In this document: piece after piece, positions 12,482 through 62,665 of the stretch
Numbering within the stretch: position 1 is the stretch's first letter
Layout: each line of letters begins with the position of its first letter
NCBI GenBank assembly: GCA_008632985.1
Contig: QPGO01000021.1
Location: forward strand, 248,001 to 312,000
Length of the DNA: 64,000 bases
DNA from: Psammoneis japonica
Lineage: Eukaryota
Direction of reading: 5' to 3'
Translations under genes and position numbers: made by a program
The notes under the pieces: generated by a model
What the model saw: only the letters and a program-made list of their open reading frames with translations
What the model was told of the DNA's origin: nothing
Databases searched by the model: none

Positions 12482-13030
12482 TGTCGGCTATCTCTAAAGC
12501 TATTACGTTGCAAGTGTCGCGATCTTACAAGCAACACAAGCAGAACTGAAGGGAACGACGAGGGAAGCAGCAACAGCGACAACGTCTTCCGACTTAGTCA
12601 TCGCTCCGTGCTATCATTCCCTCGATCATTCTTTTCCCGCCACTTTTTGCGCACTCACTGACGTACGCGCGCTTCAATTTTTAGGGTTAGAGATAGTTTC
12701 TATGTGGATTAGGCGCGATTGTCGTTCATAGGTCCCGCTCCTCCTGCCTGGCCTGCCTTACATACATACTTCCTTGTGCAGCCGAGAAGAGGTGTGTTGC
12801 AGCTACTGTAGCTGTCGAAAGAACGCTCAATTCATCTCCACCGATAACACAATATCAATATTCATGGGAAAAGGTATGAAGCAATTGTATGGCGGCTGAC
12901 TAGAGACTTGCTGCCAGGACTTTGTGGGGGGCAGGGACCGTCGCGCATGACCAAACTATCCATCAAGGATTAGAATTCAAAATCAACTAAGAAAATTCGA
13001 TTAGAATTTAAGAAATCACTACTTCTGCTC

Positions 13031-15596: not shown

Positions 15597-16006
15597 AATG
15601 GTCAATGCTTTCAACAACAGAAACAAAAAGGCTCGTCCTCGCTCTGCGAGAAGTGATGATTCGTGGATCGCCAAAGTTTTGTCGCGAGGAACCGAAAAAC
15701 TTGAAAATAGCGCGACGCCGTCTGCATGTCTGTCGTTTTTTGCGGGAAGGTACTCTTCAATTTTTGAGTCTGCTGTACTCTCTCTCTCTCTTACCGCTCT
15801 AGAGAGAGTAGCTAGAGCGCGCCCTTTAGTTATTCCCCATCTTTGTGCTATCCATACAATCTATCTACTCCCAGTACCATTCCCCCTAACCAATAAATAC
15901 TTCTACTTTGTACGATTTCTGCTTCTACCATATCCTGTACATGGAGTTCAAAATTCAACCCATTTGAATTATGAATTAGACTACTAACTACTTCTGCAGT
16001 TCTTCC

Positions 16007-18610: not shown

Positions 18611-18729
18611 GGTGATCTAACAACGGTCGTTGTGATCACGTGATCAGAGTTTTTTGTGTCAAAGGATTTGAGATTGAGAATGAGCGCGCGCCCAGTCGTT
18701 CAACGGTCAGACCAAGCAAAAATAACGAC

Positions 18730-23247: not shown

Positions 23248-23519
23248 TAGAATAGTATTCAATGTGAGTCTGCCAGGACAGACTCGCTTATCATATTATA
23301 AAATAGACCACAAGACAACGACAAACACCAGAAGTGATACGACCATGCACAGACTATGCAATTAGTAGCGCTATTATGCATACTGATAGGGATGTGTACC
23401 CCTACTTGATAGACTCCTTTGTCGGTGGTACTTGTTTGACTGCGGTTTGAACTATCGGTGGCCACATCAATCATCTGCACCATCGCGATGAGTGTTGGAA
23501 TCTAGAGAGTTGAGTGTAG

Positions 23520-23650
23520 ATAGTTCCTTTGCACCCGCCATCTCTACTACTACTCTACCTCTACTGTAGCTACTACTCTAGCTAGAGTAGAGAGGGCCAT
23601 ACTCTAGTCTACGGTACTAGAGAGTAGTAGAGTAGAGAGTAAGAGATAGG
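23520..23650. repeat. CTA/TAG/GA-rich low-complexity tract upstream of subtilisin copy 1
   Basis: ctactactactctacc...tagagagtagtagagtagagag. Confidence 0.7.
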
Positions 23651-23964
23651 ACAAAACTTGAAACTGCTGGGCGGGCTGGGTACGAACTTTAAAGCGAATC
23701 AGAAAATGACTTTAGAAATGACTATAATAGACAAAGAGGTAATAATGACCCTCAAAAACATAAGCCCCTTTTCGTTTTGCAACGTCCAAATGACTCTTCA
23801 GCATTCCAAAAAAAAACGTGTTACGTGCTACCTACTACCGAAGAAAGCATTCGTCCTTCACATATTTTATGTGTTGCAAGCTGATCGACTCAACAGAGGA
23901 CTTCGATGCCCCTTCGCTTGTGAACATCCACAAGAAATTTTCTTATCTTCAGCCGACCAACGCT

Positions 23965-29800: not shown

Positions 29801-32689
29801 TGCAAAAAATTGTGAACAAAAATTTTGGGGCAGGGACACAGGAGAGCCAACAAAAATTTCGGAGCAAACAAACATGTGGAGTGAACAGGACATTGACACA
29901 ATTAAAGGCTGAAGGTTGAAATTTTTGTGTTTGTTAGAAGACAGCTTCACTGTGGGAAAGACAGAGGTGACAGATTGCACAAAAAATTTGAGCATCATTT
30001 AAAAAGAGAAGAAGAATTTTGCATGGGCAGTCCATGTAGAAAACACACATGAAGGAAGCCCTCTGGGAAACATTGGGTGATGCAGTCTGCTTCAAATGGG
30101 TGAGACAAATTAAATCAAGCAAACGTCAATTAAACTTGTCTGGGGTGCTTGGGTCAGGTGGGCACCGATGGAATGATGAGGGGTGGTGTGAAATTGATGA
30201 AGACTGTTTAAATTAAATGAGCTTCACCCCTCATTTAAGGAATCAAAACTCAACGGAAAAATTTGACCCCCTCATTGAACCTGCCTCTGATGCAAGCTCT
30301 GTGGCCTTGCTCTTTCCAGACTCCACTGTTTTTCTCCATGCCGCAGTGCTCTTGGAGAATTTTGGGACATTGTCATGCACAGAACCGTGTGCATGCTTCC
30401 TTGTTGGTCTGTCTTTCACCCACAATGATTTCCACAGTTTTGTCCTCCCAAGTTGTTGCCATGCGTGAATGGTTTGTTGATGGGCTCTGCATCTTTCTTC
30501 CTCTTGCCTCTTTTTTGGTTTTTTTCCTCTCTTTGATGGGCTCCCACCACCCTGCTTTTGCCCATGCATTTCTTTGGCTTGTTCTGTTGTCAGCACAGTT
30601 TGTGTAGAGGCCAACAAGCACTGCTGTGTTAGCAGCAGCATCTTCAACTCCCTCATTGCAACATTTTCTCATCACTTGCCACACATTTGCATTCTTCGTT
30701 GTGGACCAAGTGACGGTGTTTTTTTTTGTGACATTGATGGCAATTGGGGTGCACTTTTTTGCCCAGTCTTCCCAGGTTCCTCCCACCCAGTCTTGCTTGC
30801 TGAATTTGCCAATGGCTGTGTTCTTGCACATTTGGTGCAGCCCCTTTCCACCACTCAACATGTCTGTCTTGGCAGGGAACTGTGCTTTTGGAAACAGTTC
30901 TTTTTGAGTCACACCTCTTCAATTTGTTTCTTCAGAGATTGGCGCTCTTCACTTGCTCCTGCCTGCTCCAACACTGCCATCACCCTTGGGCCAAGTGGCA
31001 CTTCCTCTGACCTGTCCTTGTTGGTTGTAAGTTGTTGACAACTTTTGTTGCAACAGCAAGGTTGCAGGTCCCACTCAGACTGCCCACTGTTGCAATGGTT
31101 CAAACTGATTTTTCTGACTAAAATTTTGATGCTCACACCAATGCTTCTCAGTTTGCAGCTGCTGCACATGGCACAAATTAATCACAATGGCACAATTTTT
31201 TTTCTTCCCAATGCATTCCTTGCCATCATCATGTTGCTTTCAAAGTTTGGCAATTGAACATTCAGTTCAAACAAATCATTCCAAAACCTGCAGATCTCTC
31301 AAACATTTCAATTTGGCGCTCACAAGCCAATTTAAAAATGTCAAATTACATGCACAAGCATTTTAACCTGTGAAAGCTTTGTTCATGTGGAATGAATTCA
31401 ATGCACACACCCTTCCCACCAAAGTTGGTTTCCTGTTCCCAATGCTGCACCACAATTTGCTGACACCACACATTTGTTCAGTTGCTTCCTGCTCCAGGAG
31501 AGACTGCAACAAGGTTGTCTTGTTGCCCTCCCTGCACAGGACATGCAGAACATCAAGCCAGGCAAATCAGCTGGAGCTTGCACATCATGCAATTGCACCC
31601 ACACCGCTTGCCCTGCAATGGCTTCAGCAAAGTTAATTCTCTCATGCCATGTTGACAATGGGTTCTTCATGGCAAACATGGGCTCCAAGTCTTCTGCCAC
31701 ATGTGTGCTGTCTTCTTCCTTCAGCAACCTCCAAGCCAAGTCAAACTTTCTTCCTGCCAAGTGGCACATTGGTTTCTCCAAAGCCTTGCATGATCTCTCC
31801 ACATGTGTGTTCCTGTTGAAGAAAATGCACTCTTTCTGCTCCTTCATGTCCATCAACTCTTCCATCAGACAAACAAATGATCCTTGATCTTGGGATTGAT
31901 GGGGCAGTTGAGCGGTGCTGCAATGGCACATCACACATTTTGCAGGTGTCCCATCTTCATGTGTGCAATTGCAGTGTTCACAAACTGTGTGGATGTCACC
32001 AATGTGAGAACAATTGTTGCAATTTCCCTTTGCTGGAACAAAATTGTTCACTGTTTTTTCTGTCAAAGCTCCCTCTGTTGTCCCAAACTTGGCAAGGTGG
32101 CAAACAATCTGCTTTTCCCACAGATGCTTGTGAGTCTTGTCCTTGTGCGGGTGAGCTCTCTGCTCCATCAGTTCCTCAAGGTGCAAATCATGCCACAAGG
32201 GATCTGGGAAGCTTGGGTCCATTGTGCAGCAGACTGAATTGTGTGACACAAACAATGGACACATCCTCTGAACCAATGGAGCCAGATGATGAGTGCAAAT
32301 CTCTTCATGCATGCATGCATCACTGTCTCCATTGCATTTGAGACAGTGTTCTGAGTGACAAATTGTCAACAGCACTGTGCAAGACAATCAAATTGCTGGC
32401 TGATGTGCAACCAAAACTTGCTTTTTGCTTCTTGCAGACAAATTGAACTTTGCAATGTTTTGCTCATCTTCAAGTCAACAAACAATCACAGTGCATGTGA
32501 AATCATTGTTGCCCATAAAATTTTTCACTCATGCAGTGAAAACACAATGCACACCATTTTGCACCCTTTTTGTGCCATGTTTCCAGCCCTGTTGTTGGAA
32601 TTCACCCTCTTTGCATGGCCAAACCAAACAACAATGCCACTTTTCATCAGCTGTGCTGCACAACAAAAAACTCACTCAGGTTGCAACAC

Positions 32690-35600
32690 AGATGATCCAA
32701 AGGCTGACCAGAGGAAAACCACCTGCCCATGTTGCAAATGAACCTTCTTGTGCGCGCTCAGTCACTTTCACAACAACCCCCATTGTGCCTCCATTGCTCT
32801 TGAGAGGGCCAGCTTGTTGCACCATCGTTGCTGTGTGATGGTGTTGTTGTGATGGGCAGGTTGCACATCTTCAGCAAGGGTCAAGGATGCACATGGCAGA
32901 GGATTGGAAGAGCTTGACCAGTCTTCATCATTGACCGACTCATCTCATCCTGTGTTGAGGTGGTCCTCCTGGCGTGGCACAGCTGTCATGAGCATCCAAC
33001 TGGAGCTTCAGCTGTCAAGTGAGACTGTTGGGATGCACCTGCATCACCACCATTTGATGATGACATTTCTCCCCTTGCACCCATCTTTGAGAAAGAGGAG
33101 CAGCACATGTCCATGTCATTGGAAGTTTTGTTGCAAGCGAGCCTGTCTGAAGTGGGCTTGTTTGATGAATTGCTGCCTGACATCAACATGAGCTCTGTTG
33201 CCAATGACTTGGAAGAGGCATCTTCATCCTTGGATGGAAATGTCTCACTTGGCAAGGATGGCAGGTTGGGCAAGGTGCAATCTCACCCAGCTGCTGAAAA
33301 CTTTACAAACTTGCCATCTCTGAGCAAACTCAATGGAACCTGCGTTGAGCTGTGCAAGATCATTGATGACTGCCAAGCTCTGCTTCACCTGTGCAACAAC
33401 ATTGCATGTTTCATGGAAAGGTGTTGTGGAGCCACCTTCAAGCTTGGCACACAAATCCCTTGCCAAAGCAAACCAATCAAAACTTTGTCCAAAGTGTTTC
33501 CCCATCCCACTTGGGAGTTGATTCCTGTCAACCTTGAAAATGGCATGGAAGAAAGGGGTGAGAAAATGGTCACAGTGCTGCATTGAAACTTTGAACAAGA
33601 TTGGGAATCCTGCATGGCAGACACTTGCCCATGGGCAAGCCCAAGCAAACTTGCCAACCCAAGTGATCCACACTTGAAATGTGCTTGGCAAAGGGCCCAG
33701 CTAACAAGTGTGTTTGGCCAGCTGCTGGTGGTGCAGAAGGACCTGAGCCCTGCCATGCCAGAGTGATGGATCCTCAAAAAAAGAGTTCCTGGAATGTTTG
33801 ATGGTTTGTGTCAACAAGACAGGCCAAAACCTCCATCCATGGGATCATCTTGCAGCAAACCTGTCACAGTCACTTTTGCTCATGTTGCCTTCAAAAAAAT
33901 GCATGACAAGGCAAAATGGAGGAGAGCCTTTGGTTGCACTCCCAACTTAGAAAAAAATTCATCTTCTGCTGGAAAGCAACAGTCCAATGCAAGAAAGTCA
34001 GAGAAGGGGTGCAGTCCACAACACCATCACAAGGCATTGAAGACAATGCTTCAGCCGCTGCTGGACATGATGGAATGTGGTGACTTTTGGTGTCATGTGT
34101 GCTGAGGCAACAAGATTTGTTGCCTTCATGTGATTCCCACCATCACCCCAGTCAATGGCAACACAAAGAGTGGCAACCATCTGGCTGGCCAACGTGGAGC
34201 TGAGAATTGTTGTCAGTGCTGTTCCAGGTTTTGCATGATGGGATGTCATGACCTGGATGACCCTTCAAAGGAGTGCAAGCTTGTGTGTGCCAGCAACCTT
34301 GCATTTGCACAGGAAAATGCCATGGACAATGGTCTGTCAGAGGAAGAGCAAGCTCAATGGGACAATCAGCTTGGTTGCATGAAGCAACACAGTGTCTCTG
34401 TGAATTGCTTGCTTCATTCATGCAGATTTAGGAGAGCAACTGTTTGGGGCAACCCTGTCCACTGCAAGCAACATGATGCACCTGTTTGAGAGCGGCACTC
34501 TCAAAAAAGAGATTGGTGTGTTTGTGGACAGCATGACCAACTTTGTGAGAAGCAAGGTGGACAGAATCACAGAAAGGATGTTTGGCCAACACAGATCCAC
34601 TTGCACAACCCAATTTTTACAAACTAATTTCAAAGGTGGTGCAACATCACTGGCCTTCCCCAGTTCTCATCACAGGGCAGAAATGGCCTTTGTTTTTCAC
34701 ACGTTGCTGCCAGCCAAAGATGATTGTGATGCGCGCGCCTCTTGTTTCTTGGATGAAGACCACGACAACTTTCTGTTGCCAGAGAATCATTCCATGCCCA
34801 AATTCCAAATGGACCATTGCTGCAAACCAAACCAACTGAGCATGATGCTGAAAATTACACCCCAGCAGACAAGTTGGAATCTGGTCAGGACAGAGCTGAT
34901 GTTCCACATGACACAGATGCCTCTGTCAAAACAGAGTCAATGTGGACAGCAAATGTGAGAAAGTCAGCAATGACAACAACCAGAAGTGTTGCACACAGAA
35001 AAAGAAATGACAACCACTTAACTGTGGCATGCATCAGCATCTGAGGTTGCTCAAAGATTTGCTGACATTCCATGCCTGGCACAAATTGGGCAAGCCACCC
35101 ACAGATCTAAATGATCTGAGCAAGATTGGCAAGAAAATTTGCTGGTTGATGGCAAGAACAACAGCACAACAGCGCATTTTACACCACGTCATGAGGGAGC
35201 CAGGTGGAAGTCACATTGGCTTCACAAGCTGCTTCGCCTGACAACATTTCTTTGTTTCTTCTGCCATTCCATGAACTTCAATGCTGGGCTTGGGCAGTCT
35301 CTGTCAAAGGATTGTTCAAGCTGCTTTTGGCTGCTGCACAGTGGCAACTGCACAGCAGCACAGCTTAAAAGTTTTCTTGAGTCAAGTCATGTCCTGAGTG
35401 GAAGACCAAATTGATGGTTCACTTGGCAATTGCTGCAAACCCATGGATTGTTTCTGGGAAGCAAGGGCATGCCACACCTGCTCCAATGCAATGACGCTGA
35501 CTTGGGTGCAGCACTTTTGCTTGCTCTTCAGTGCAGTGAAACAAACAAAGCCATGTCCTTCTGTTGGCTGGGAAAGCAAGCTCACTGCCAGGTGCACCCC

Positions 35601-36152
35601 ATCCTTTTAAAGTTCTTGGGCAAATGATGGAGGGAGTGTGTGAGCATTGACAATGAAACTCTTGACTTGCTCACATTCAAACCTGAGTGCTGCAACAGGA
35701 GTGGAGTTGATGCTTGCTGAGCACACCTGGGCTGCAACAGCAAAGGCTCCATGTGTGACTGGGCTGGTGTCAACTTTGGAGCTTGGCACAGGGATTTGTG
35801 TTTCCCATCTTGGCTTTGCTGTTTCTTTAAAAATCCAAGCAATGGTGAGTCACCAAATTGTTCACCCAAGCATGCACCAGACAGAAAAGCACTCAATGGC
35901 AGAGAGGCTTCAATGCACCAACCTGGTGAGTCATTGGCAATTGGACCAAGTGAAAAACCAGGATTTGTCAATGGCCAACAAAGTGGTGCACTCCCCTGAA
36001 CTATCTTGGTGCTGACAGATGCAATGAGAGACAAGTTGTTGGTGGATGAAGAGCAGCCAGGTGTTGCAGAGACACATGACAAGACCAGACATGTCTGGGT
36101 GGTTCAAAACAGGAGAACAACATGGGCAGACAAGCTCCACATGAGCACATGA
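32690..36152 (+). pseudogene. Plavaka-like (CACTA/EnSpm-related) transposase relic
   Basis: Fragments resemble Plavaka motifs as I recall them once TG/CA are reverted: AFG(C>Y)TPNLEK, (HH>YY)HKALKT(M>I)LQPL, VNG(N>D)TKSGNHLAG, CSRFC, DLDDP, NF(N>D)AGLG; many stops and frameshifts. Confidence 0.6.
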
Positions 36153-37345
36153 CAAGGTTTTTTTTTCAACAAGTGGTCATCACTGCAAGGGGCAACAAAG
36201 GTTGGGAAAGGGGTTGGCATGGTTTGTTTGTGTGCAACTCCCAACACATGTGACACTCACCTGAGTTTTGCATTGCGATGGGCTTCCAAGCTTCCAATGC
36301 TCATTCTTGGGTTTCTGACATTGGGTCTGACCAGGTTTCCATTTGTGACGAGTGTTTTTTGCTCAAAGGACAGGAGCTTTGATGGCTTTGTTTTGTTCTC
36401 CATCAGCAATGTCTTGAAGAACCACAACACTTTCTCTGTGTCTGGACAACATTCCTGGATTTCCTGCTCCATCACTTCCAAATGCATCTCTTCCTGATTA
36501 GATGGCTTGCCAAGCCATTCCACACTTTTTCAGTCACCAATTTTCATCAAAGCTTGGCAAATCCTCAAAACAACCTTGCTTGTGGTGTCCTCATTTGCAC
36601 CCAGGATGCACACACAAGTGCACATGAATTTCAAGTTTTTCACAACTTGTGCCAGTGACTGAAGGTCAAATGGAACAATGATTTTGGACCTGTGCAATCT
36701 TGGGTGTGTCAGACACATGATCACTTCTTGCAGATTCTCTAAAAAAAATGTTGTCCAAATGCATGTGGTCTGTTGCCATTCCCCTCATTGCACCCAGCAG
36801 CAGCCCACACAATTTTGACAAAGCCATTCATTCCAAAACCAATGTTGCCCCAAAATTGTTCTAAAACCCTCTCCACAAAATCTTTGAAAGAAACATTGCA
36901 GCTCAGGTGATGGGTGCTGCTTCTGTCCCAGAGCAAAATGGTGTGTGCTTCTGTGCGCACTTGTGTCTTCTTTGTTGATCAGAAACTGCCAACCCAATGC
37001 CTGGGTTGGGGCACAACTCATCCAAAGAGAAGTCTCTTGCATTCACTGGTCTGGTCATGCCAAGCCAAAGGAACTTGGTGCTGCTGTCATCCCTGCAAAT
37101 GAATGGGAACAATTGTCACCTCAATCAGAGGAGGAGCAACGTGCTGCTGGACAATTTGCTGCACCAACAAACAAATGGGACTCACACTGTGGTTTGCAGG
37201 ACACAAACCACAGTTTGTGGGACACAAACTTTCCTGTCAGGAATGCTCACAAAAACTGGCAGTTGTGCACTGGGAGGGAACTCGTTGTCTGAATCCACTT
37301 GCACAACAAAGTCAGTTCTGGCAGTTGCAAGCTTTGCAATCCAAT

Positions 37346-37630
37346 GAGTCCAAATTGTTGTCAGCTGTGGGTCCAGAAACAACAGAGGCAGACAATGTGG
37401 TGGTGCACTCCATGGATGCATGATCTGTCATTGAGCCCAAATCAATGTTGGCCACAGAACCAGAAAGAAGGGAGGTTGACAAGTCGTCAGTTGCTGAGCC
37501 CAAATCATTGTCAGCTGCCAGTCCAGAAACAACAGAGGCAGACACAGACTCTGCGAACTTGTCTGTCATTGAGTCCAAACCATTGTCAACCATGGCAGGA
37601 TCAGAAAGGAGGAAAGTTGATGAGTCATTG
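37346..37630. repeat. Internal direct duplication of a ~140-150 bp unit
   Basis: GTCCAGAAACAACAGAGGCAGACA and TCTGTCATTGAG-CCAAA...CAGAAAG-AGG-A-GTTGA each occur twice. Confidence 0.7.
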
Positions 37631-40600
37631 GCTGTTTGCACATGCTCAGCCAATGCAGTGTCCAAGATCCTCTTGGAGAAGTCTTCATGTTCACAAACAC
37701 TGCCCACTGTGTTGGCACAAGATTTGGTCAACATGCCAGAACCTGGTGTTGTTGGCTTTGTGCACAGGACAGATCATGGTTGACACAGTCCACAGTTTGA
37801 CACTTGGCAGTGCCATGCTCCTGACAAAGATGCCGCAGGCTAGATGCCAGATGGAGAGAAGGCAAAAATGTCTTGACCTGAAACAGGACTCCCCAGAACA
37901 AGCAATGGAATGTGTTGGTGCAACAAGGGCTCAGTTCAATTCCCTTGATTGCTTGGTCCCAGTTTCAGAGGGGATCCTGTCATGAGTCAGAGGCTGTTCT
38001 TCTGACTTGATGTGTGCTTCAGCTGTTCTACAGCTCCAGAATTGAAAATGAGGCACACAATGTCATTTGGACAAGAATGGTCCTTCGAGACAAGAACAGT
38101 GTCTGGCAAGAGCAAGATGTTGCAGAACCAAAATGAGACAAAACTCAAAGAAAGCTGTCCCACAGTTTTCCCACACATCACAGGCTGCCTTGCATCATTG
38201 TTTGGATTTGCGCCAAACTCATCTCCTGTGTCTGTGTTTTCATCAATCTAAAGCAGAGTTGTGCAAATTTTATCTGCCATTTTGTCAACCACTGGATTTG
38301 CCTTGTCATTGTCATTGGGGTCCAAAAGAACCCCGCCCTTTGCAAACTTCTTGTCCATCATGTCAGTGGGGCTGATCTGCCCCACCTGTTTGTCCCCTGA
38401 AGGAAACACCAAACTTCTTCATCATCAACTTTTGGAAGAGCACAAATGGGTCCATTCCTTCACAACAGAGATTGGGCAAGTGCTTGTTGTCACCAATGCA
38501 GCAAAAATGGTGGCACCTGGCAGGACAACCTGCCAAAATTGCAAGACCCATGACATGTTTGGGGTCAGGGTCAAACCTGCACAGTCCACCATTCCTTTGA
38601 ATTGGCAAAAACAACTGTGGCTGGAGCTGAGAGATGAGTGTCTCTCACAGGGCAAGCTGGTGGCTTCAATTGGTCCATGCACACTTTGGGAACACTGGTG
38701 GTGCCACCGCCGCCTGTTGCAACAGACAACCAAGGACAACTGTCATCCAGCAACAAGTGCTTGAATGCATTTGCAGATGGCTCAACCTCTGGGTGGGAGG
38801 GACTGTCATGCATGAGGTCCATGTCTTGCAGTGCACAGTCCAGTTGAGCTTTGTTGCAATGCATCTGCATCAGCACTGGTTGCATGTTGAACTTGTCATT
38901 GCAATGAAACTCATCCATGATGAAGAAACAACTTGCTGATGTCTTCAAGCAGCAATGCCAGCTGCAGCTGTTTGCATTGTGGTGACCTGCACAGTGCTGG
39001 CCATGACCTTGCATTGTGCAGTTCTCCTGTTTGAAACATGGGCAACCCAACTTGTCAGCCAAAATCTTGGCATGCTCATCACACCAAAGCAACCAGTTGA
39101 AAGGCAGAGGGTTGTTTGCTTTCTTGAGCCACCTTGTTTTCACAAAGCTGCAAGAGTCCAAAATGTCTGCAACTGCAGCCTTTGTCTTGGCAGACAAATG
39201 TTTGTAAAGTTCTCCTCATCCACATCAAACACATCAAGATCTCAAGTCTCCATTGGCTTTGTAGACTTGGTGGAGCCTGGCTCCTTCCAATGACACTTCT
39301 GTCCAGCACACCCAAACTTGATCATTCTTCTGTCTCCAGATGCCACAGTGTTCAATCCATCATGCTTGAGATTGGGTTTGCCCTTCAATGAAATGAAAAG
39401 CAGTGGGGGTGGGCACACAACATGGAGACTGCCAAAGCAAGATTGGCAAAACTGCACTTGCTCGCCTTGCAACAGATGGCACCTCCAAGCAATGATCTAG
39501 ATCAGGAGGGTGATCCACTTGGACACACCGGCAGGCCCCTTGGCAGGATTGCCTGTGGGAGTTTTGTTGGCAAACTTGTGCCAGCCAGTTGTGCACCAAC
39601 TTGTCTGCAAGGTGGAAGTCACCAGCAGAGTGGTGCAGAATGTGCTCAATGTCAGTGGCCTTGTCAATGATGTGCAGGCATGACAAATGAGCAACAACTT
39701 CATCAGAGGCAACAGGGTGACATTTGGATGGGTTGAAGCATTGGCAGACCGTCAACACATCCAGCCACACAGCATGTCATTGGGGTTCTGCAGTGGGGAG
39801 TCAACAATCAGGTGCTTCACAGCAATGCTGGCAGGGCTGGAAGTGGAAGGATGAAGAAGGTTTGGCCAGGGTGATCATGTCCAACAAAGTGGGAATGTTG
39901 GAGGCAAGGGTGTGATGAGAATCCCTCAACAATGACACATTGTCAGATGCTGTGGGAGGAGTTGGGTTGGAAGGAGCAAAGGTCTTGGCCTTCTTGCAAG
40001 GGATGGTCAAAGAAAGCTCTTGTGGAACAAAGAAAAATTTGGAGAAAAGAAATTCATGAGACTGAGGGACATGGGAATGTTCAGGCAAACAAGTGTGCTT
40101 GCTGGCATCACACAAACAGATGGGTTTTTGATTTGCACTCTTGTTTGTGTTCATCTTCCAAACACCAGTCAGCTCTCTGGTTGTGTCTTCTGCAATGGAG
40201 CATCATGAGCTGCTTGCAGCACATGGGGTGGGTGCCGGGCTGCTCTTTCAGACTTCAGACAATGCTTCCCAAATTCTTGCTCCTCCCAGTGGGCCTTGGC
40301 ATTGCAATTCTTTGTCACCAGGCACTTTGTGCCATGAATTTCGTCTGTGACATGTGCCTTGATGGCATCCTCCTCTGACCCAACTTTGCCAGACTCACAA
40401 ATGACAAGAAAGCTGTTGACAAATGTGCAGCAATTCTTCTGTGTCAACCTTCCAAAAAACCCACAAGAGCCAACAACTGGTTCCTTCTGCTTGCGTTGCA
40501 CATGGTGCATGCATGACTGTTTCAGCAACAAAGAAAGCACCATGAAGGTCACATGCTTGGTGACAATCAAGGCCAGGAGACTGACACACTTCCAAAAATG

Positions 40601-41949
40601 GAAACAAGGCTTGTTGCCTGTCAGCAGATCATTGAGGTTCTCACCAGCAGCAATGATGTGGTGCACAAACTCAACCATCACATTGATGTTGCAGCAGAGT
40701 TTGTGACATTGCTGCTTCTCCTTCCCCATCTCACCAGGTGTTGCAGAGAACTCAAGAGCTTCCTCTGGCTTTCTGCATCAAAGAACATGGCCACCCTTGG
40801 CTTGACAGGATCTCTTGATTCCCCAACCACAAGTTGATGCAGGACCACATGTCAGGACATCCGAAGGACTTCCTTGCAACATTGTTGGTGTGGATGACTT
40901 CTACAACATGTGGAAGATGATGAAGTTTGGCTTGTGGCAAAGGAAGGGAGGCACCAGGAATTCTGGAGAGGGTGCCCAATTTGTTTGCTCCATGAATTGC
41001 ATTTTTTAAAGGCACATGCTGTGTTGTGCTTTTGAGCTTTGGCCCAAACAACTCTGTTCCAAAACCATTGGCAAAACATTCCCCATGTCATCAAAATCAA
41101 CATTGCCATTGAAAACAAATGAGGGGTTGGGGTTGACCTCATTGGCTGATGGGGCAAAGTTGTTCACTGCCATGGCCAGTTGTTGATTGGAGACAACAAC
41201 ACGTGCAATGCACGCAAATCACAGCAGTGCACACTCTTGCTTTTCCACATTTGGGGAGAGAGTGTGCCATTGTGAAATGTGCAGATGTTGGTGCACATGA
41301 AAAAATGCTGATGAAGCCACAGACCAACATGCTGTGTGAATCTGGGAAGCAGGAAAAAACGAGGGTGCACACATGGTGGTGGCAACTTGGGCATGCAGGG
41401 GCAATGTGGCACATGCACATGAGTGAGGAGGGCAAAGTTAAAACCAAGTTCAGTTGAAAAGCAACAAAAAAAAACAGGTGTCACTGAAGGTGACATTGCA
41501 AAGAGAGTCAACCAATGCATGCATGTTGTTGAAGCCAGTGTCGGAAGAGCAAACTCAGAAACAAAACAAACATGCCAAACAAAAGCATTTTGTTTGACAT
41601 GGTCACTCAAATTCTGCACATTCAACTGGTTGGTGAAACTGGTTGGTGAGCTCAGCAACAACTGCACAAACATTTACAAAGGAAAGCCAAAGCTGTTTGT
41701 TCTCCATTTGATCTGGTGCCACATGCCAATTGCAAGACTTTGGCCAATGCCAAGTGTCTTTCACAGGTGCAGCTTGACCCATCCAATGGAGAGGTCTTGA
41801 ATTGCAGCTGAGTTTCAACTCCATTTTCTTGAGGAAACCATGACCCAAAGCAACATTGCTGCAAGCACACATGGCACTCAAAAACACAGTTGGTGGTTCC
41901 AGCCACAGAGCGTGTTTTGTCAAACTCTGGGAAAGTCAAGTCACAGAGC

Positions 41950-43270
41950 AAGACCCAGTGGCCAGATTGAAGTGGCCCAGCTGGCATCTGAAAGAAGCAA
42001 GGCTCTCTTTCTCACCAACCAATGGTTTTGTGTCTGTGGCAGCCCCATGGAATGGACAAGAGCATGAGAACTGCATCCTCCACAACTTGGAGTGCATCAC
42101 CATGAGAAGCTGCTCAAGCCCCCAGTTGCTGGCATTTTCTGCTTGAGCAGTTCTCTGGCTCCAACCTCAAGCATCAGTGCAATCAGCATTGCCATCTTGA
42201 ATGTTCTGATTTTGATTGTTGCAGCGATGCTGGCCACCACCCTGGTGATTTGCACCATTGCTGCCTCAAGATTCATGGCAACTGCAGTTGTCATTGTCAC
42301 AGGTGCCTTTCACCATGACTGCCATGGCACCCACCACCCATGTCCATGGCCACCACACACCACACAATTGCCACAGACTGCCTTGACTTGGTTGCTCTGC
42401 TGGCACCCCCTGATGTCCTTGATGGTTGGGATTCTGAGGGTTGTCATGGCACTGTGCCCACCAGGAATGGAGTCCCTCATGCTGTGGCACACTGGACATG
42501 GGTCACTGGGATTTGGCTGCATCTTGCTGCCTTCTCAACCATTGCTCATGTCCACAAACACTCTTGAGTTCATGCTGCCACCTCCATTGCCACTGCAGCC
42601 ACTGTCATCATGGCTTCTGTTGCAATCATCCTTGCTTGCCACTGTCAACAAATGGCTTGTTGATGTCCATGCGTGTTTGCAGATCCAACACTGCATCAGC
42701 AGTCAAACTCTTGCCTGCTTGCATGCACAGCTGCTGCCAGTCAAAAAATGTCTTTCATCTCCTGCTCTGTGAGAACAAAAAGGCAGCTCCAGACAAATTT
42801 TGGCACAGCAAAACACATGGTTTTCATGTGGCTAATGTGTGCAGCAGTTTTGGCTGAAAATGACTTCTTGCAAGCACAGGCAAGCATGCTTTTGCATTGT
42901 CACAAGCTGCTGCTTTGAGTGGCACCAATGTGCCAAATTTCAATCCAACAGCATGAGCATGAGCTGATCCACACTGGCAGCAACATTTGACCATTTTCCT
43001 TTGGCAGCAGTGTCACAGCCACAAGCAATCTTCAAAGTGGCCAAACAGCTCCAGCCCAATTGTGTGCTGAAAGTGGCAAGCCAGTTTGGAAAACTGATTC
43101 TCAATGCACAACAATGCTTTGGCACCATGCTCCCCACTGAAAATTGGACAAGTGCTTCAAGCACCATTGTTGAACTTCTGCATGAGGTTGAGATGTCTTT
43201 GAGGAGAGGACAAACAAGTTTTGCATTGTGTGCAATTCAAGCAGTCTCCAGAGCAGCTTGATGCATGATG
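41950..43270 (-). pseudogene. Possible gag-like relic of an LTR retrotransposon
   Basis: Across a frameshift reads DPCPV-PQHEGLHSWWAQC(H>Y)DNPQNPN, a C-x-H-x-H-x-C knuckle followed by a Gly-rich tail; similarity from memory only. Confidence 0.3.
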
Positions 43271-43293
43271 TGACAACATTTGGAAGCTGGCCA

Positions 43294-43364
43294 ATCATCA
43301 TCATCAACAACAACAACAACAACAACAACAATGACAACAACAACAGCAACAACAACAGCAACAA
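43294..43364. repeat. (ATC)n/(CAA)n microsatellite
   Basis: atcatcatcatcaacaacaacaac...caacagcaacaacaacagcaac. Confidence 0.85.
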
Positions 43365-44312
43365 AGACAATTTGTCATCACACAGCCCATGCAACACATC
43401 TGTGATCAACAACCAAGCAAAAAAGTGCCTTAAACTCAACTGCATTGGGATGAGTTTTGATGTCAATGAACAATGCTCCATTCACCAACTTCAAGCATGG
43501 CTGCAATTGTTTCCTTTATGAGCCTCATTTCAACCCACATTCAAATCAATCTCTCTTTTTTTCTTTTTGTTGGTGTTCTGAGGATGGGGAGATGCCATTG
43601 CTTGCTGCAAGACAGTGGATGAGAGCAAGAAACAAGACAACAACAGCTGCAACAACAGCACAAGATCTGGCTTGAGATGGCTTGACATTCTTGACAATTG
43701 TGAGGAGAACCAAGAAGGGGGTGCTGTGGGGGTGAAACCCTTCAAATGGCTCCCCTGGAAAACACTGTGCGATTGTGTGCTGAGTGTGCCAGGACAGTTG
43801 CTGCACTGTTGATGTCATTCCCACAGGTGTGTGCTGCAATCATGGTTTTTTACAAACTTTTGCTGAAATTACATGCTCACTTGTTTTTTCATGTCTCGCC
43901 ATTTCTGCTGAGATCATTGCCAGTTTGCTGCTGTCTCAAATCACCGCTCATTTCAAGCAATCTCCAAGAGTTCTCAAATGTGCTCACTTTGGCTGCCAAG
44001 CCACTTTCCCCTCTGTCACACCTCACAATTTTCTGGAATGCCAAAATCTTGGATTCCATTTGTGTGACAATGCTGGACAAAGAAGATGAGAAATGCTGGG
44101 AGGAGCAAAGCCAAGGAGTCATCAACTTTGGCGGCTCAACAGACAGAGAGAAACTCTTGAGGGGCTTCAAGCTCCAACCACTTGAGTTGCAGTTGATTGA
44201 ACCAATTGGCACAGGGGCTGTTGCTTTCATGTCTGCATCATCTTCATGGCTGAGACATTCATGCCATCACATCAGCCATGCACTGGACTGTCATTGGCGC
44301 TCACCAGTGCCA

Positions 44313-44350
44313 GTGCTCAAATGTGCTCAAACATGCTCAAATGTGCTCAC
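44313..44350. repeat. 10-bp tandem repeat, about four copies
   Basis: gtgctcaa atgtgctcaa acatgctcaa atgtgctcac. Confidence 0.75.
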
Positions 44351-44989
44351 TTGTGATGAATGTGTTTGCATCTGTGAGTGCATGTCACAAAAATGCAACA
44401 TCTGTCCTGCCTGGCACATTTGTTGCCAATCTGTTGCAAGGCAGGTGGCAGCCACGCAGGCAGGCCACACAGGCATGAGCATGCAGACAGAGCCCACAAA
44501 TGTTCCCTGCTGCTGCATCAGCATCCACACTCTGCACGGCACAGTGGAAGCGACTCTGCTCCTCTCATTGATGCAGTGCATGTTGAGACAGTTCATTGCT
44601 TGCTGCATGTGCCACATGGCACGCAGGTGCACACAGTCTCCTTTCAGTTGCCACGATGAAAATGGTCGCTGATGGGTGAAGTGAGAGATGCCTGACTGCT
44701 CCATGGTGTCTCCCATCCTGCCAGAACAATGAGGGGTGCCTTGGGCTGACCTCATTTTTGCTGCTTTCATCCAATCATCTGGCTGCTGTGGCCGGCTGGG
44801 ACAGATTCTGCAGGACAGGCATGCAGGCACAGACCCACCTGTCACCTGCAGGCAGGCCTGCAGCACCATGCGGGCATTTTGCTCAAAACGTGCGAATTTC
44901 GTGCGACAACATTTTGAAAAAACATGTGTCACGTTGTGGCCATCATGATGTGCAACTTGAATCACGTTTTGTTGAAACACCACCTTTTG

Positions 44990-45120
44990 CTCAAACATGT
45001 CATGTTTGAGAAAACAGGACTCAATGTTTGAGGAATTGCTCAAACTTTGCGCAACTTTGAGCACTTGCTCAAACTTGCTGCTCAAACTTGTGCGCAAAGT
45101 TTGAGCACTTGCTCAAATGT
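44990..45120. repeat. Cluster of GCTCAAA/TTTGAGC direct and inverted motifs (subterminal-repeat-like)
   Basis: CTCAAACATG-t-CATGTTTGAG (44990-45010); GCTCAAA...TTTGAGC hairpins at ~45038-45062 and ~45080-45106. Confidence 0.7.
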
Positions 45121-45691
45121 GCAAAATTGATGCCAGCAGTCTGCCGGTGTGAAACTGCCATGCAGCACCAGCCCACCACACCGCACATGCTGTGTGCACT
45201 GCTGTCACTGCTTTCAATGCATGCATCTGTCAGTGCAAAGTGAACCCAACGGAAACAAGGTGTTTGCAGTCGTTGCCGGCAAACAACAAAATTGCAACCA
45301 TTGCACCATGGTGACATGAACAATGATTTCTCTGTGACAATGCCTTCAAGAAACCCAGTGTTCCAATGAAAGACATGTGACACAAACTCACACATGAAAA
45401 TGTTGAAAGTTCCAGCAGAATGGGCTTGTTGGGGGGGCTGCGGGGACCAACAAGGAACAGTGTCATGCAACAACATTTTGTCTTTTGTTTCGATCAAAAA
45501 CATTTTTCAAACCATGCCTTGGCATTGACGTGTGCCATGATGTTCACATTCATTGTTCCAAGTAAAAAACACGTCAAATGGATCATCAGCAAGTGCTGGC
45601 ATTAGACCATCTTCATGTTGTCATCACAGCCCCGTTCATCATTGTGCCAATGCAGATTTTTTGTTTTTTGGATGCGCGTTTCTTTCCAGCA

Positions 45692-46950
45692 ATGGCCAAG
45701 AGGGTCACTGAAGACCAAGGCCTTGAAAATGGCGGTCAATGTTTGCAGGGGGAGCAACTGTGGGCATCCGTTCATCGCGTTTATGATCGCCATCCCGAGG
45801 AAACAATCACTTGGTCATTTGTGCACCACACAGTCAAGTGGTGAACGCCATTTTTCAGTGTGATGGAGGGATAATTTTGCAAAGGATTCATGATTGCTTC
45901 ACTGTGGAATTTGGAAGTTTTTTCAGCATGTTTGCAACTCAGAAGAGATGCAGAATCCCACCGGAGTGGAGGTGATTGAGATCTGCTGCACCCAACACCG
46001 GATGTCATTGGGGACGGGCACAATCCGGCAGACTTCTTGAGTGAGAACAAGCTTTCAATGTTGGTGAACAACATGGACCACTCATGTGAGGATGCTGAAG
46101 TGTGTCTCGTGGCGGAGCCAGAGTTGGACATCAACGCATGTCCTCTGCCACCCACTCTCAAACAAGATGCCTCAAAAGAGATGGCTCCCACACTTCAACC
46201 ACTTTGGAGTGAGACTCGTCACAACATGAAAGAAGATGATGTTTGCTGCGGCACACGTCCATCGGATGCTCCCGATGTGCCTCACAAGTCAGAGTCTGCA
46301 AGTGACGAACTGATTCACAAAGTGATGACCATCGTTGACAAAAAGAGAATCACAGTCAAGAACATGGATGACTGCGGAGACCATGCAAGTGCTTTTGTTT
46401 GTTGTCACTCGTTTTTGTGTGGAGGCTCATTTGAGAATGGAATCTCACATTCATGTGTTGCCGCTTTGCTCCAAACCAGGTTGATTTCACCATCGATGAC
46501 AAGACATCTTCATTCAAGTGCACTGCCACTGTGTGGAAAGAGATGTTTGAGACAGCAAAGCATCGTCTCTTTGATGGGGCGGTGCATTTGGACAAGATCA
46601 TGCAAGGGGACTGTCTCATCGGAAGGGGCAAGCAAGACCGGACGTCTCCGGCACAATGCTTCGTCATTGATGAAAACATGGCAAAGCCAGGAACTCGCAA
46701 CAAGGCTTTCAAAATCAACTGGGATGATTTCCCAATGATTTGCACAATTGACTCTGCATGCACAAAGAAGCAACGGGATTGGAAAACAAATCTTTGTGCA
46801 CCCCCCAATCGCACGTGGAAATGCACCGCTCCGTTGCACCAAGACCCGCCGAAGTTGGGGGTTCGCAGCCTCCACAAAGACAGTCTTGGACTTGTGTTTC
46901 ATGATGGGGTCACATGTGCACAAGCCCCGCTTGTGTCACTCGATTGCTCT
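45692..46950 (+). pseudogene. Degenerate coding sequence of unknown function, nearly Tyr-free
   Basis: Protein-like stretches in successive frames (46037-46738, 46453-46974) with CpG retained, TpA absent, and Cys/His where Tyr might be expected. Confidence 0.4.
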
Positions 46951-46999
46951 CAGTGTTGGAATCTAGAGAGTTGAGTGCAGATGTTTCCCTTGCACCCGC

Positions 47000-47330
47000 C
47001 ATCGTGTTCTGCCATTTCTCTCATCACCTGCCAGTGCCGGTGCCGGTGCTCTCTCTCTCTCTCTAGAGTTGCAGCTCTCTGCCACTGCCAGAGAGGGCCT
47101 CTCTGCTCTCTTTCTCTCTCTCTCTCTCTCTCCACTTCCACCACTGGAGCAGCAGCAGCAGAGCAGCTGCACCGGTGGCTCTGCTCCCTGTGATGGCTGG
47201 CCCCACTCTCCAGAGAACAGTGGGCAGAGCAGTGTGATGCGACTCTCTCTGCTAGTGGTGGTAGCTAGAGTAGCTGCTACTCTCTCTCTAGCAGCTGCTA
47301 GCTAGTAGAGAGAGAGTAGGGCTAGAGGTC
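47000..47330. repeat. Low-complexity tract at the position matching 23520-23650, grading from CAG/CTG/CCA to TAG/CTA
   Basis: Lies between the same conserved anchors (GCACCCGCCATC ... AAAACTTGAAAC) as in copy 1. Confidence 0.7.
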
Positions 47331-47718
47331 TAAAACTTGAAACGGTGGCCTTACAGTGCCGGCACCTGCCATGACCAACTAACAAAGCGAAATCAGACAC
47401 TGTAAATGACTTTGGAAATGACTATGATAGACACAAAGGTAATAATGACTCCAGCTTTTTTTAATGATGATATAAATGAAGCTATTTTTCCATGTAAGAA
47501 AAACATAAGCCTCTTTGCGTTTTGCAACGTCCAAATGACTCTTCAGCATTCCGTGTTACTGTACTCTAGGTACCGGTACCGAAGAAAGCACAATAATTCG
47601 TCCTGCACATGTTTTTTTTTTTTTTTTTGGGCAAGCTATCGACTCAACAGAGGACTTCGATGCCCCTTCGCTTGTGAACATCCACAAGAAATTTTCTTAT
47701 CTTCAGCCGACCAACGCT

Positions 47719-50211
47719 ATGCGGTTCAATTCCTTTGCATTGTTGATAACGGCTGTGCTTACGGATGCCGGTTTCCCCAACAACATGGGAAAAAAGGATC
47801 GAGTAAAACTTCAGAGCATCTTAAGTGGCAAACTACAAATACCAGCAGATTTGCCATTTTTTGTAAAATATAAAAGCAAAAGAGGAAAGAGAGTGGCAAA
47901 ACGTTGGGCGAAGAACGAAAGGTTTGAAAAGAACTACCCCAAGAAAAGTCTTCTAATAATGCGTCCAGCAAACAGCACTGCTCTGAGGGCGCTTTCGAAG
48001 AGTCATTTTGTGGAATACATTGAACCAGTCCACAATGTACATGCTTTACCTTCAAACGGACTCGCCTTTTCAACCACCCATGAACAAAAGGAAATCTCCC
48101 GCGCATTGCAAGAAACAGTTGGCTATGGCATCGACATGGTACAGGCATCTCAGTTGTGGAATACTCCTAATGCCACAGAATTGACCATTTGTGTCATTGA
48201 CAGTGGGTTCGCCCTTGGACATCCTGACTTACCGAATCTTGATTCAGGAGTTACAGGAAGCTCCGGTAGAACTGGATATTGGGGACAAGATGGTTATGGT
48301 CATGGCTCACACTGCTCGGGGGTAATCGGCGCCATTGGGAGAAATAACCGAGGTGTTGCTGGCATCATGGGCGACGCGAACCCGTTCAAGCTTCACATTG
48401 GGAAGTGTTTAGATGACAATGGCGAGGGTTCTGAAATAGACTTAATTGATGCATTTGAAAGCTGCACTGCCGCCGGAGCAAACGTCATTAGCATGAGTCT
48501 AGGTGGAGAAGACTACAGCGAATCGTTCCGAAATATTTGTAAGGAGGCTTATGACGATGGGGTCCTCTTAGTTGGTGCAGCTGGAAATGGTGGAGATGAC
48601 AGCCATATGTTTCCCGCTTCGTATCCAGAAGTAATGTCCGTAGCAGCGGTTGATAAAGATATGAAGGTTGCGGGTTTCTCGCAATTCAATGACCAAGTAG
48701 AGATTGCAGGGCCGGGAGTAGACATTGTTTCCACCGTTCCAACAAACAAAGGACAAGGGTTTGGCTACGACACCTGGAGTGGTACTTCTATGGCGACACC
48801 CCACGTCGCCGGAGTAGCCGCGTTGGTTTGGGGGTACTTTCCACAGTGTTCGAATAACCAGATTCGCAATGTGCTCGTTCGAACTGCCATGGCTGATGGT
48901 GGCGGATGCAATCATGAGATAGGTTTCGGTGTTGTCCAGGCAAAAGATGCTTACGATCTACTGTTGGCAGAGGGATGCGGTGCTGGTGATCCATCCCTTG
49001 TACCTCTGTCAGCAAATGCCCGCGGGGGTTGTGCTCAAGATCCTTTCTATCGACCACCACCTACAGCATCACCGACTGCATTTGTGTGCACAGAAAAGAT
49101 ATTCTCACTTGAACTCACTACAGATGAATGGCCGGAGGAGACAGCATGGGATGTCGAAAATTCCTCAGGCGATCTTGTCGGTTCCGGCAGTGGTTACCGA
49201 AAAGGTTCACTGTACGAGGAAAAGCTTTGTCTCCCTGCTGACTACTACACCTTTACAATAAGAGATTCGGAAGGTGACGGTATCTGCTGCAAATATGGAT
49301 CTGGAAGTTATGTTGTTTACTTTGATGGTGACCTGATATCTGAAGGTGGGAGTTTTGGAGCAGTTGTCACAGTTGCGTTTGGGGAGAATCAAATAAACAA
49401 CAATCCTACCTCGCCCCATGAGTCGCTACTGGGAAATATCGAATCCAATGGCATTTGCAAGGATGACAAGGACTGGAGTTACACAAATCCAAAAGGAAGA
49501 ACGAAAAAGTGTAAATACTTGATGACAAATACAGCTACAAGATGTCAAATCGTGGGTTCTGATAGGTTTGGTAACAGCTCACCTGGCTTTGTTTCTTGCC
49601 CGGCTACGTGTGGGAGCTGTCCACCGACTGCTGCTGCTGCATCTCAGCCAGCAATACTGTCAACCGCATCACCGACTCCCCTACCAACATCATCACCATC
49701 CGTTCCACCATCGTGGTCACCAACTGAAAGCCCAAGTACTTCGCCAACGCAGTCTCCGACAATCTCACCTACTTATCAACCTACAGTGTCACCGACTCGT
49801 ACACCGACCAAGGTACCGACCGAGCGGCGACAGTGGCGCCAACCAAGCTCCCTACTCGGACACCGACTCAGATTCCGACTAACGTCCCACGAACGCTCCG
49901 ACACCGGTTCCAACAAAGCGCCCAACTGATCAACCAACAACATCCCCTACACCGCCTCCAACGAAGCCACCAACACGTAAACCCACGCCGAATCCCACAC
50001 CGAAACCCGCGCCCAAGAAATGCAAATCAAGGTGGAAGTAAGTCACGTTGTACACTCGTTTATTGCGATCTACTCGACTGTCACTCACGCTCTATGCCTT
50101 CTCAACGTTTTCATTAGGGAGTGTACGAATGATGTGAATGGGTGCTGCTCTGGCCTTCGCTGCATTGGAGATAGGTCCTACCGCGAGTGCACTCCACCAG
50201 ATGACATTTGA
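47719..50211 (+). CDS. Secreted subtilisin-like serine protease (S8), copy 2; frameshift(s) from ~49826 in the PT stalk; intron 50038-50117
   Basis: Close paralog of copy 1 with VIDSG, HGSHCSG and SGTSMATPH; shorter PT region. Confidence 0.88.
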
Positions 50212-62614: not shown

Positions 62615-62665
62615 GGACGGGGGCCAGTCAGCCCTAAAGCTGGCCTGCAGCCCTCCTCTACCTGC

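What the first reader, a model, noticed from the sequence alone, without database searches (positions are those of the whole stretch)
46952..47620. Duplicated subtilisin upstream region acts as an internal control and shows a spreading gradient
Seen: homology with copy 1 starts at AGTGTTGGAATCTAGAGAG (23491 / 46952). Copy 1 TA aligns with copy 2 CA or TG at 23517/46978 (gtgTAga/gtgCAga), 23713/47413 (ttTAgaa/ttTGgaa), 23725/47425 (ctaTAat/ctaTGat) and 23863/47610 (caTAttt/caTGttt). The CTA/TAG simple tract of copy 1 appears in copy 2 as cagtgccggtgccggtgc and agcagcagcagagcagctgc near the element, is mixed at ~47250-47310, and is normal tagtagagag beyond. Inference: mutation leaks a few hundred bp into host DNA and decays with distance, like RIP leakage or heterochromatin spreading.
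Basis: seen in the sequence. Interest (0 to 1): 0.8.

Follow-up and report, generated by a model that had tools for sequence, protein, structure and literature searches.

The report
TA-erasing mutation overshoots into host DNA
In a diatom genome, a process that rewrites TA steps to TG or CA in transposon DNA has run about 300 bases past the transposon edge into the DNA upstream of a host protease gene and then stops abruptly, which suggests it is aimed by position on the chromosome rather than by repeat sequence.

Summary
The window is diatom DNA with a 20-kb repeat-derived block (26,969-46,949) between two 91%-identical subtilase genes; TpA o/e 0.05, CpG 0.08. Transposon copies show TA is ancestral and goes to TG or CA site by site on both strands. 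In copy 2, host DNA 46,952-47,250 keeps 2 TA against 52 TG/CA; from 47,251 TA is back at copy-1 level (11:5 vs 24:10). A step fits far better than decay (nLL 65.6 vs 78.9). A weak tail (4 of 12 TA) reaches 47,610; the coding region is untouched. The block's other end shows no overshoot. Two other loci show similar one-sided overshoots, while 4 of 6 informative transposon ends show none. Another run reads TA at 47,296 where the window has TG. Closest known: TpA hypermutation of viral inserts in Bigelowiella (2026 preprint); not RIP. The scan noted this process before on other DNA of this genome; this locus adds a paralog-controlled overshoot into host DNA. Enzyme and barrier are inferred, not shown.

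The parts
23491..26968 (+). Duplicated unit, copy 1: subtilase gene with 5' and 3' flanks; TA-normal internal control
   Evidence: (3' homology weak, ends near 26968)
23543..23655 (.). Unconverted CTA/TAG/CT/GA low-complexity tract of copy 1
   Evidence: 23491-23655 has 24 TA, 10 TG+CA; same tract type at 6 other loci
23965..26649 (+). Subtilase (Peptidase_S8 plus PT repeats) first-exon ORF, copy 1
   Evidence: PF00082 E=1.1e-45; ATG 23965
26969..46949 (.). Composite repeat-derived block, TpA- and CpG-erased. Right end is a truncation (a homologue runs on past it), not a terminal repeat
33200..35500 (+). Degenerate DNA-transposon ORF remnant, many copies in the genome; a homologue gives a weak Plavaka transposase hit below cut-off
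   Evidence: 54 matches; PF18759 E=0.0038, 16.9 bits vs cut-off 26.3 on L070
45670..46122 (+). Internal fragment of a 1.7-kb TIR DNA transposon with TA target site (mariner-like label recalled; no Pfam hit). Its converted and unconverted copies polarise the mutation
46952..47003 (+). Alignable host anchor of copy 2; 2 of 3 TA converted, the survivor in the resistant TCTAGA context
47004..47250 (.). Host CTA/TAG tract, almost fully converted (overshoot plateau)
   Evidence: 46952-47250: 2 TA, 52 TG+CA; tract-model test
47251..47331 (.). Sharp edge, then essentially unconverted remainder of the tract; edge 468 bp upstream of the ATG
   Evidence: HMM edge 47251; 11 TA, 5 TG+CA; step fit
47296..47297 (+). 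Edge site that reads TG in the window and TA in run X1
   Evidence: (47297 G>A, one contig, depth 40 of 40)
47332..47718 (+). 5' non-coding region with a weak tail: 4 of 12 alignable TA converted, 0 reverse, 9 of 9 CG kept
   Evidence: TA-site transitions 4/23 vs other A/T 0/99, p=0.001
47719..49929 (+). Subtilase ORF, copy 2, not affected
   Evidence: PF00082 E=2.5e-46; TA-site transitions 9/176 vs 38/915, p=0.54; of 55 TA sites able to convert silently, 47 kept and 8 converted, with 6 reverse

Best explanation
A locus-targeted mutator acts on double-stranded DNA in transposon-rich domains of this diatom. It turns TpA into TpG or CpA, one site at a time on either strand, alongside slower CpG decay (SHOWN from copies). 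Its reach is a chromosomal domain, not the repeat sequence itself: next to subtilase copy 2 the domain covers about 300 bp of single-copy host DNA and ends at a sharp edge, with rare hits up to about 360 bp further and none in the gene (SHOWN). The domain is probably silent chromatin nucleated on the transposons, and the edge is probably held by the active promoter or transcribed chromatin of the neighbouring gene (INFERRED). That would explain why the overshoot varies from under zero to about 300 bp and is one-sided. The chemistry is most likely adenine deamination (A to inosine, read as G) by a TadA/ADAT-type enzyme, as proposed for Bigelowiella (INFERRED; about even odds against thymine-side chemistry or error-prone repair).
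For: Direction and spectrum: of 265 copy-by-site cells at reference TA, 27 are kept, 126 are CA and 103 are TG. A>G is 221/490 after T against 22/758, 33/640 and 26/785 after A, C and G. CG is kept in 177 of 315. 54 of 65 sites show both outcomes among copies, and outcomes are not clustered along a copy (216/417 vs 207.1+-7.9 shuffled). Overshoot. The two surviving TA in the plateau are both TCTAGA, a context that survives at 0.41 of the outside rate, against 0.001-0.07 for contexts such as ATAT, ATAC, GTAC and CTAC. Replicate 1: a TIR-bounded element in L044 splits a host tract. One flank is converted (2 TA:37 TG/CA in 178 bp; TA-poor to about +300); the other is not (14:8 in the first 90 bp; p=1e-6). 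Replicate 2: tract at G000:C23:355.6-356.0 kb, upstream of a 543-codon ORF; gene-proximal half 17:7, domain-proximal half 2:29. Target-site TA is converted at 19 of 20 converted transposon ends and kept at 8 of 8 unconverted ends. Run X1 reads TA at 47296-7, and 11 of 16 listed single-copy block differences interconvert TA/CA/TG/CG.
Against: No chromatin, methylation or expression data were available, so domain and barrier are inferred. Distances from domain edges to the nearest ORF start scatter from 10 to 1303 bp (44 edges), with no fixed value. Only 3 overshoot cases were found, and one lacks a defined junction; 14 of 20 converted transposon ends were uninformative because the flank stays TA-poor for over 1.5 kb. 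A third tract touching a domain edge is barely converted (0.64). The tail rests on 4 sites, one poorly aligned, none polarised by an outgroup. The deaminase-family matches found (5) are expected housekeeping genes and point to no enzyme. No allele lacking the block was seen.
Confidence: 0.7

Rival explanations
1. Smooth leakage: the mutator is loaded on the repeat and its hits decay continuously with distance, like RIP overrun.
For: A tail of TA-specific changes exists at 47332-47718 (4/23 vs 0/99); tracts near domains are more converted than distant ones (3 vs 8 tracts, p=0.03, including this one).
Against: Step nLL 65.6 (3 parameters) vs exponential 78.9 and linear 77.1 (2 parameters). No overshoot at the left junction or at 4 of 6 informative transposon ends. 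Pooled over 58 HMM edges, the TA fraction is 0.28 and 0.26 in the first two 100-bp bins outside, not depressed, though HMM-defined edges favour sharpness.
Confidence: 0.1
2. The sharp edge is a later product. The converted zone was once wider, or was mutated while part of a mobile or rearranged piece, and slippage regrowth of the tract or conversion from copy 1 restored TA on the gene side.
For: The tract is slippage-prone and three times longer in copy 2. The block's right end is a truncation, so rearrangement occurred.
Against: Non-tract DNA beyond the edge keeps 8 of 12 TA, and the CDS keeps 47 of 55 silently convertible TA, while the copies differ at 142 of 699 codons, so they are not homogenised. 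The same geometry recurs at an intact TIR end in L044.
Confidence: 0.12
3. Same domain targeting but different chemistry: thymine in TpA is oxidised (5hmU/5fU, TET/JBP type) and mispairs with G, or error-prone repair tied to 5mC deamination produces T>C at TpA.
For: A>G and T>C cannot be told apart in double-stranded data. In dinoflagellates 5hmU silences transposons and preferentially replaces T in TA and TC (PMC11572971, passages). CpG decay co-occurs, and many C5-methyltransferase matches exist (27).
Against: No Tet_JBP match, though the controls did not ring either, so this is inconclusive. TC is not depleted (o/e 0.94). TA loss is complete where CpG loss is partial (44.4-46.95 kb), which argues against simple coupling to CpG repair.
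Confidence: 0.3
4. Reverse polarity: TG/CA is ancestral and copy 1 gained TA by a RIP-like CpA>TpA process.
For: No outgroup could be aligned at the four named sites (third gene copy too diverged).
Against: Tracts of this type are TA-rich genome-wide (0.51-0.95 at 14 distant tracts). TA is the only state one step from both TG and CA that is also observed in agreeing copies. The transposon's TA target site is converted in converted copies.
Confidence: 0.02

Closest known systems
TpA>TpG/CpA hypermutation of integrated NCLDV and virophage DNA in Bigelowiella natans (Mettrop et al., bioRxiv 10.64898/2026.01.13.699255; parts 1-3 of 5 read, supplements not seen)
   Same: Same substitution, same dinucleotide, both strands, confined to foreign or selfish DNA; leaves TpA-poor, CpA/TpG-rich clusters; enzyme unknown.
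   Different: Here: a diatom (stramenopile); near-saturation (o/e 0.05 vs 0.45 for their NCLDV region); 40% of 694 kb sampled; DNA transposons as targets; joint CpG loss; context-dependent resistance (TTAA, CTAA, TCTAGA); overshoot into host DNA with a sharp edge. The preprint's main text has no 'diatom', 'CpG', 'flank', 'boundary' or 'spread'. No rate is measured here.
Repeat-induced point mutation (RIP) and RIP leakage in Neurospora / Leptosphaeria (PMC3105345, passages; other features recalled)
   Same: Repeat-associated, dinucleotide-specific transition mutagenesis that can overrun into adjacent single-copy DNA.
   Different: Opposite polarity (destroys TpA, which RIP creates); a 2.4-kb 91%-identical gene duplication is spared; single-copy DNA is hit to saturation up to an edge.
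DNMT5-dependent CG methylation of transposons in Phaeodactylum tricornutum, overlapping H3K9me2/3 and H3K27me3 (PMC9998398, passages)
   Same: Gives the established silent-chromatin domains on diatom transposons and explains the CpG>TpG/CpA part.
   Different: Does not account for TpA loss, which here exceeds CpG loss in depth and reach.
ADAR/APOBEC editing of retroelement intermediates (recalled; PMC4866542 seen in search listing only)
   Same: Deaminase-type transitions in a 5' T/U context on selfish elements.
   Different: Those are strand-biased and clustered in one copy. Here both strands are hit without clustering, and DNA transposons and host flanks are affected.

Membership tests
Bigelowiella-type TpA hypermutation | A>G/T>C transitions restricted to TpA | tested here: met
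   A>G 45% after T vs 3-5% after other bases
Bigelowiella-type TpA hypermutation | Both outcomes, TpG and CpA (both strands) | tested here: met
   267 TG and 235 CA; 54 of 65 sites show both
Bigelowiella-type TpA hypermutation | Confined to foreign/selfish DNA, genes spared | tested here: met
   block vs CDS, with the exception that is this finding: 300 bp of host flank
Bigelowiella-type TpA hypermutation | About 1000-fold raised de novo rate in mutation-accumulation lines | not testable with these tools
   only a hint: 15 differences in about 3.7 kb of block contigs vs 0 in a 571-bp copy-2 CDS contig of X1
Bigelowiella-type TpA hypermutation | Targets of viral origin | not tested
   the block was not searched for viral genes beyond a Pfam scan of 24 block ORFs with no meaningful hit; identified parts are DNA-transposon-like
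Bigelowiella-type TpA hypermutation | ADAT2-like deaminase as the agent | tested here: inconclusive
   5 PF14437 matches; the family rings in 12 of 14 control genomes, so not diagnostic
RIP (Ascomycota) | C>T transitions, typically CpA>TpA | tested here: not met
   CA kept 281/303, CA>TA 2; TA kept 27/265
RIP (Ascomycota) | Triggered by duplication of long, similar sequence | tested here: not met
   2421-bp 91% duplicate shows symmetric, background-level TA and CG changes
RIP (Ascomycota) | RID/DIM-2-type methyltransferase, premeiotic timing | not testable with these tools
   27 PF00145 matches, not assigned to subfamily
5mC deamination (CpG decay) | CpG>TpG/CpA in transposons | tested here: met
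   C>T before G 122/593 vs 1-2% elsewhere; methylation itself not measured
ADAR/APOBEC retroelement editing | Strand-biased, clustered edits within one copy | tested here: not met
   no clustering at 15, 60 or 150 bp
5hmU / TET-JBP transposon marking (dinoflagellates) | TET/JBP enzyme encoded | tested here: inconclusive
   no PF12851 match, controls silent too

The most novel reading that the evidence does not exclude
Diatoms have a chromatin-guided DNA adenine deaminase defence that edits silent domains to saturation. Its edges are set by active promoters, so erased TA steps are a fossil map of heterochromatin at near base resolution. The system is still rewriting host regulatory DNA next to transposons, and may be shared with Rhizaria as an ancestral SAR pathway.
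Probability: 0.3. Interest if true: 0.88.

Novelty: new variant of a known kind. Interest (0 to 1): 0.62.

Why it matters
A TpA-destroying mutator has been measured in one alga only, with enzyme and targeting unknown. An edge that lies in single-copy host DNA, is sharp, one-sided and apparently still polymorphic says that targeting is by chromosomal domain and not by homology or element sequence. It gives a testable prediction: silent-chromatin marks should end near 47,251, not at the repeat junction near 46,950. It also means promoters beside transposons are being rewritten. And TA-erased DNA (few TAA/TAG stops, few Tyr codons, 40% of the 694 kb sampled) can mislead gene prediction and transposon dating in this genome.

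Tried and rejected
Global alignment of the two upstream regions misplaces the tract; anchored pieces were used instead. A terminal inverted repeat CAATCGA..TCGATTG at the block ends was considered and dropped: the local alignment of the two ends did not recover it, and a homologue in L047 continues past the right end. A target-site duplication (AGTG at 26967 and 46952) remains unproven. The third subtilase copy (L012) could not polarise the named sites. The 3' exon/intron/UTR comparison had too few alignable TA to test reciprocity. Runs X1 and X2 showed no empty-site allele: depth near the junction is 52 against about 60 in single-copy block DNA, only 40 of 276 difference rows and 7 of 95 loose ends were shown, X1 may be the source strain, and contigs drop rare alleles. 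Edge-to-ATG and edge-to-stop distances gave no clear rule. Processive single-strand editing was tested and not found. Pfam gave nothing for block ORFs or the TIR element. Literature: 9 searches found no report of TpA erasure in diatoms (0 papers with TpA dinucleotide + TpG + CpA + diatom); most subscription journals are not covered. Gene context around the L044 replicate and a second contig sample could not be obtained, so which flank faces a promoter there rests on sequence appearance only.

Full report
Setting. The window is G000:C23:248001-312000 of a 91-Mb eukaryotic assembly. Among the best hits to a housekeeping protein of the window (glycine cleavage P protein), those that carry an organism name are diatoms: Chaetoceros, Attheya, Odontella and Thalassiosira. 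Two subtilase genes (PF00082), 91% identical over 2421 bp, flank a 20-kb block. In that block TpA o/e is 0.05, CpG 0.08, CpA 1.87 and TpG 1.88, against 0.57, 0.98, 1.13 and 1.20 outside. The block is a composite of repeats: a many-copy ORF remnant whose homologue has a sub-threshold Plavaka hit, a fragment of a 1.7-kb TIR transposon, and others. Such domains make up 274,849 of 694,000 contiguous bases sampled (56 domains).

The observation. All four named differences are real, and two more lie in the same direction; there are none in reverse in the 5' non-coding alignments. The tract cannot be aligned between copies, so I tested it by model. Trained on 9 other tracts with simulated conversion, the model scores 47001-47250 at 0.39 bits/base over domain DNA; 0 of 1419 domain windows reach this. 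Repeat homology ends at about 46,949, where a homologue in L047 runs on. An HMM places the TA-erased domain at 26,969-47,251. So about 300 bp of host-type DNA lie inside the domain.

Direction. Three TA-normal copies of the TIR transposon served as reference for 11 others. At reference TA, 27 of 265 cells are kept, 126 read CA and 103 read TG. A>G runs at 45% after T and 3-5% after other bases; C>T runs at 21% before G and 1-2% elsewhere. Over the whole element, 54 of 65 sites show both TG and CA among copies, and neighbouring outcomes are not correlated (216 of 417 same, shuffled 207.1+-7.9; 14 of 20 loci gave alignments). TA is therefore ancestral, and sites are hit independently on both strands of duplex DNA. 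Survival depends on context: TTAA 0.49, CTAA 0.26, CTAG 0.16, TCTAGA 0.41, ATAT 0.001 of the outside rate. Both TA left in 46952-47250 are TCTAGA, as expected for a saturated zone.

Shape of the edge. Counts of TA to TG+CA are 2:52 in 46952-47250, 11:5 in 47251-47331, and 24:10 in the copy-1 control. With approximate baselines from copy 1, a step at +300 bp gives nLL 65.6, exponential decay 78.9, linear 77.1 and uniform 89.3; logistic widths of 1-10 bp fit best. Beyond the step there is a weak but TA-specific tail: 4 of 12 alignable TA are converted up to 47,610, with transitions at 4 of 23 TA bases against 0 of 99 other A/T bases (p=0.001), and 9 of 9 CG kept. The count is small and one site is poorly aligned. 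In the CDS there is no excess (9/176 vs 38/915, p=0.54), even at sites that could convert silently (47 kept, 8 converted, 6 reverse). At the block's left junction, next to the 3' end of copy 1, TA persists to 26,966, and 7 TA survive in the first 500 bp inside, so there the edge is at or inside the junction.

Replicates and counter-cases. Of 29 transposon ends found by pattern, 8 are unconverted and keep the TA target site, 1 is partly converted, and 20 are converted, 19 of them with the target site changed too. Of those 20, TA is normal within 5 bp at 4 ends, returns at about 200 and 720 bp at 2, and stays low for over 1.5 kb at 14, which are uninformative. At two ends the last TA inside the element survive (L120, L136). 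One intact element (L044) splits a host tract: one flank is converted for about 300 bp (2:37 in the tract part) and the other is not (14:8; p=1e-6). A second half-converted tract lies upstream of a 543-codon ORF at C23:355.6-356.0 kb, with 17:7 on the gene side and 2:29 on the domain side; its junction is undefined. Of 11 tracts in 694 kb, the 3 near a domain have TA fractions 0.22 (this one), 0.34 and 0.64, and the 8 distant ones 0.51-0.91. Edge-to-ATG distances scatter (10-1303 bp, 44 edges), so there is no fixed-distance rule.

Alleles. Run X1 carries the block and reads TA at 47296-7, where the window has TG (one contig, depth 40 of 40). 11 of 16 listed single-copy block differences interconvert TA, CA, TG and CG, including a CA/TG pair at 46505-6. 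This suggests recent or continuing activity at the edge. X1 may be the source strain or another haplotype, only 40 of 276 rows were shown, and no empty-site allele appeared.

How it most likely works. Shown: a TpA-specific transition process on duplex DNA, stronger than CpG decay, that saturates transposon domains and here 300 bp of host DNA, then stops sharply and spares a near-identical gene pair. Inferred: the domain is transposon-nucleated silent chromatin, and its edge is held by the neighbouring promoter or transcribed region. CG methylation and repressive histone marks on diatom transposons are established in Phaeodactylum (PMC9998398, passages). Inferred with less confidence: adenine deamination by an ADAT/TadA-type enzyme. 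The five deaminase matches are not diagnostic, and thymine oxidation remains open (PMC11572971, passages; no Tet_JBP match but uninformative controls).

Comparison. It works like the TpA hypermutation measured in Bigelowiella natans viral inserts (bioRxiv 10.64898/2026.01.13.699255; parts 1-3 of 5 read; supplements not seen and may hold boundary data). It meets the spectrum tests of that system; rate and enzyme could not be tested. It resembles RIP leakage only in overrunning into single-copy DNA (PMC3105345, passage), and fails RIP's polarity and duplication tests. Nine literature searches found no report for diatoms. Earlier notes of this scan record the same process elsewhere in this genome; one left leakage into promoters unsettled. 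These are unchecked AI notes and are not counted as support.

Verdict. Real feature. Overshoot into host DNA is supported and replicated; gradual decay is not. New variant of a recently described kind; interest 0.62.

Noticed in passing
window 18621-19846: Small TA-erased domain (TA o/e 0.03, CG 0.38) ending right at the 5' end of the RING/Deltex ORF (16007-18616, minus strand).
   Followed up: no
window 44400-46950: TA is fully erased but CpG only partly (16-35 per kb vs about 5 in the block interior): TA loss outruns CpG loss. Pooled over edges, CpG recovers in the last 200 bp inside domains.
   Followed up: partly
window 60876-64000 and L014:1-2400: GC-rich (61-63%) stretch with low TA (o/e 0.17) but normal CpG and only mild CA/TG excess; may be a young element or compositional, not classified.
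   Followed up: no
window 49827: Copy 2 appears frameshifted in the PT-repeat region; contigs of X1 and X2 carry one more base there, so this is probably an assembly error or an allele.
   Followed up: partly
L012:1790-3950 (G000:C23:157790-159952): A third subtilase paralogue also has a TA-erased domain ending about 250 bp upstream of its ATG.
   Followed up: partly
L063-L073: TA-erased transposon copies give long stop-free frames almost without tyrosine, as expected when TAA/TAG/TAY codons are destroyed; a risk for gene prediction.
   Followed up: no
L120, L127, L128, L129, L131, L044: The TA-targeting TIR transposon often sits in CTA/TAG tracts upstream of genes, and the mutator erases the TA target sites it needs.
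   Followed up: partly
window 26967-26970 and 46952-46955: AGTG occurs at both ends of the block, and the block sits at the junction of the tandem gene duplication; a target-site duplication or an insertion-linked duplication is possible but unproven.
   Followed up: partly
G000, many contigs: Large subtilase expansion (101 matches, exons counted apart) and 27 C5-methyltransferase matches, several broken.
   Followed up: no
window 13018-14929 vs 15987-17937: Older tandem duplication of RING-domain genes (66-74% identity).
   Followed up: no
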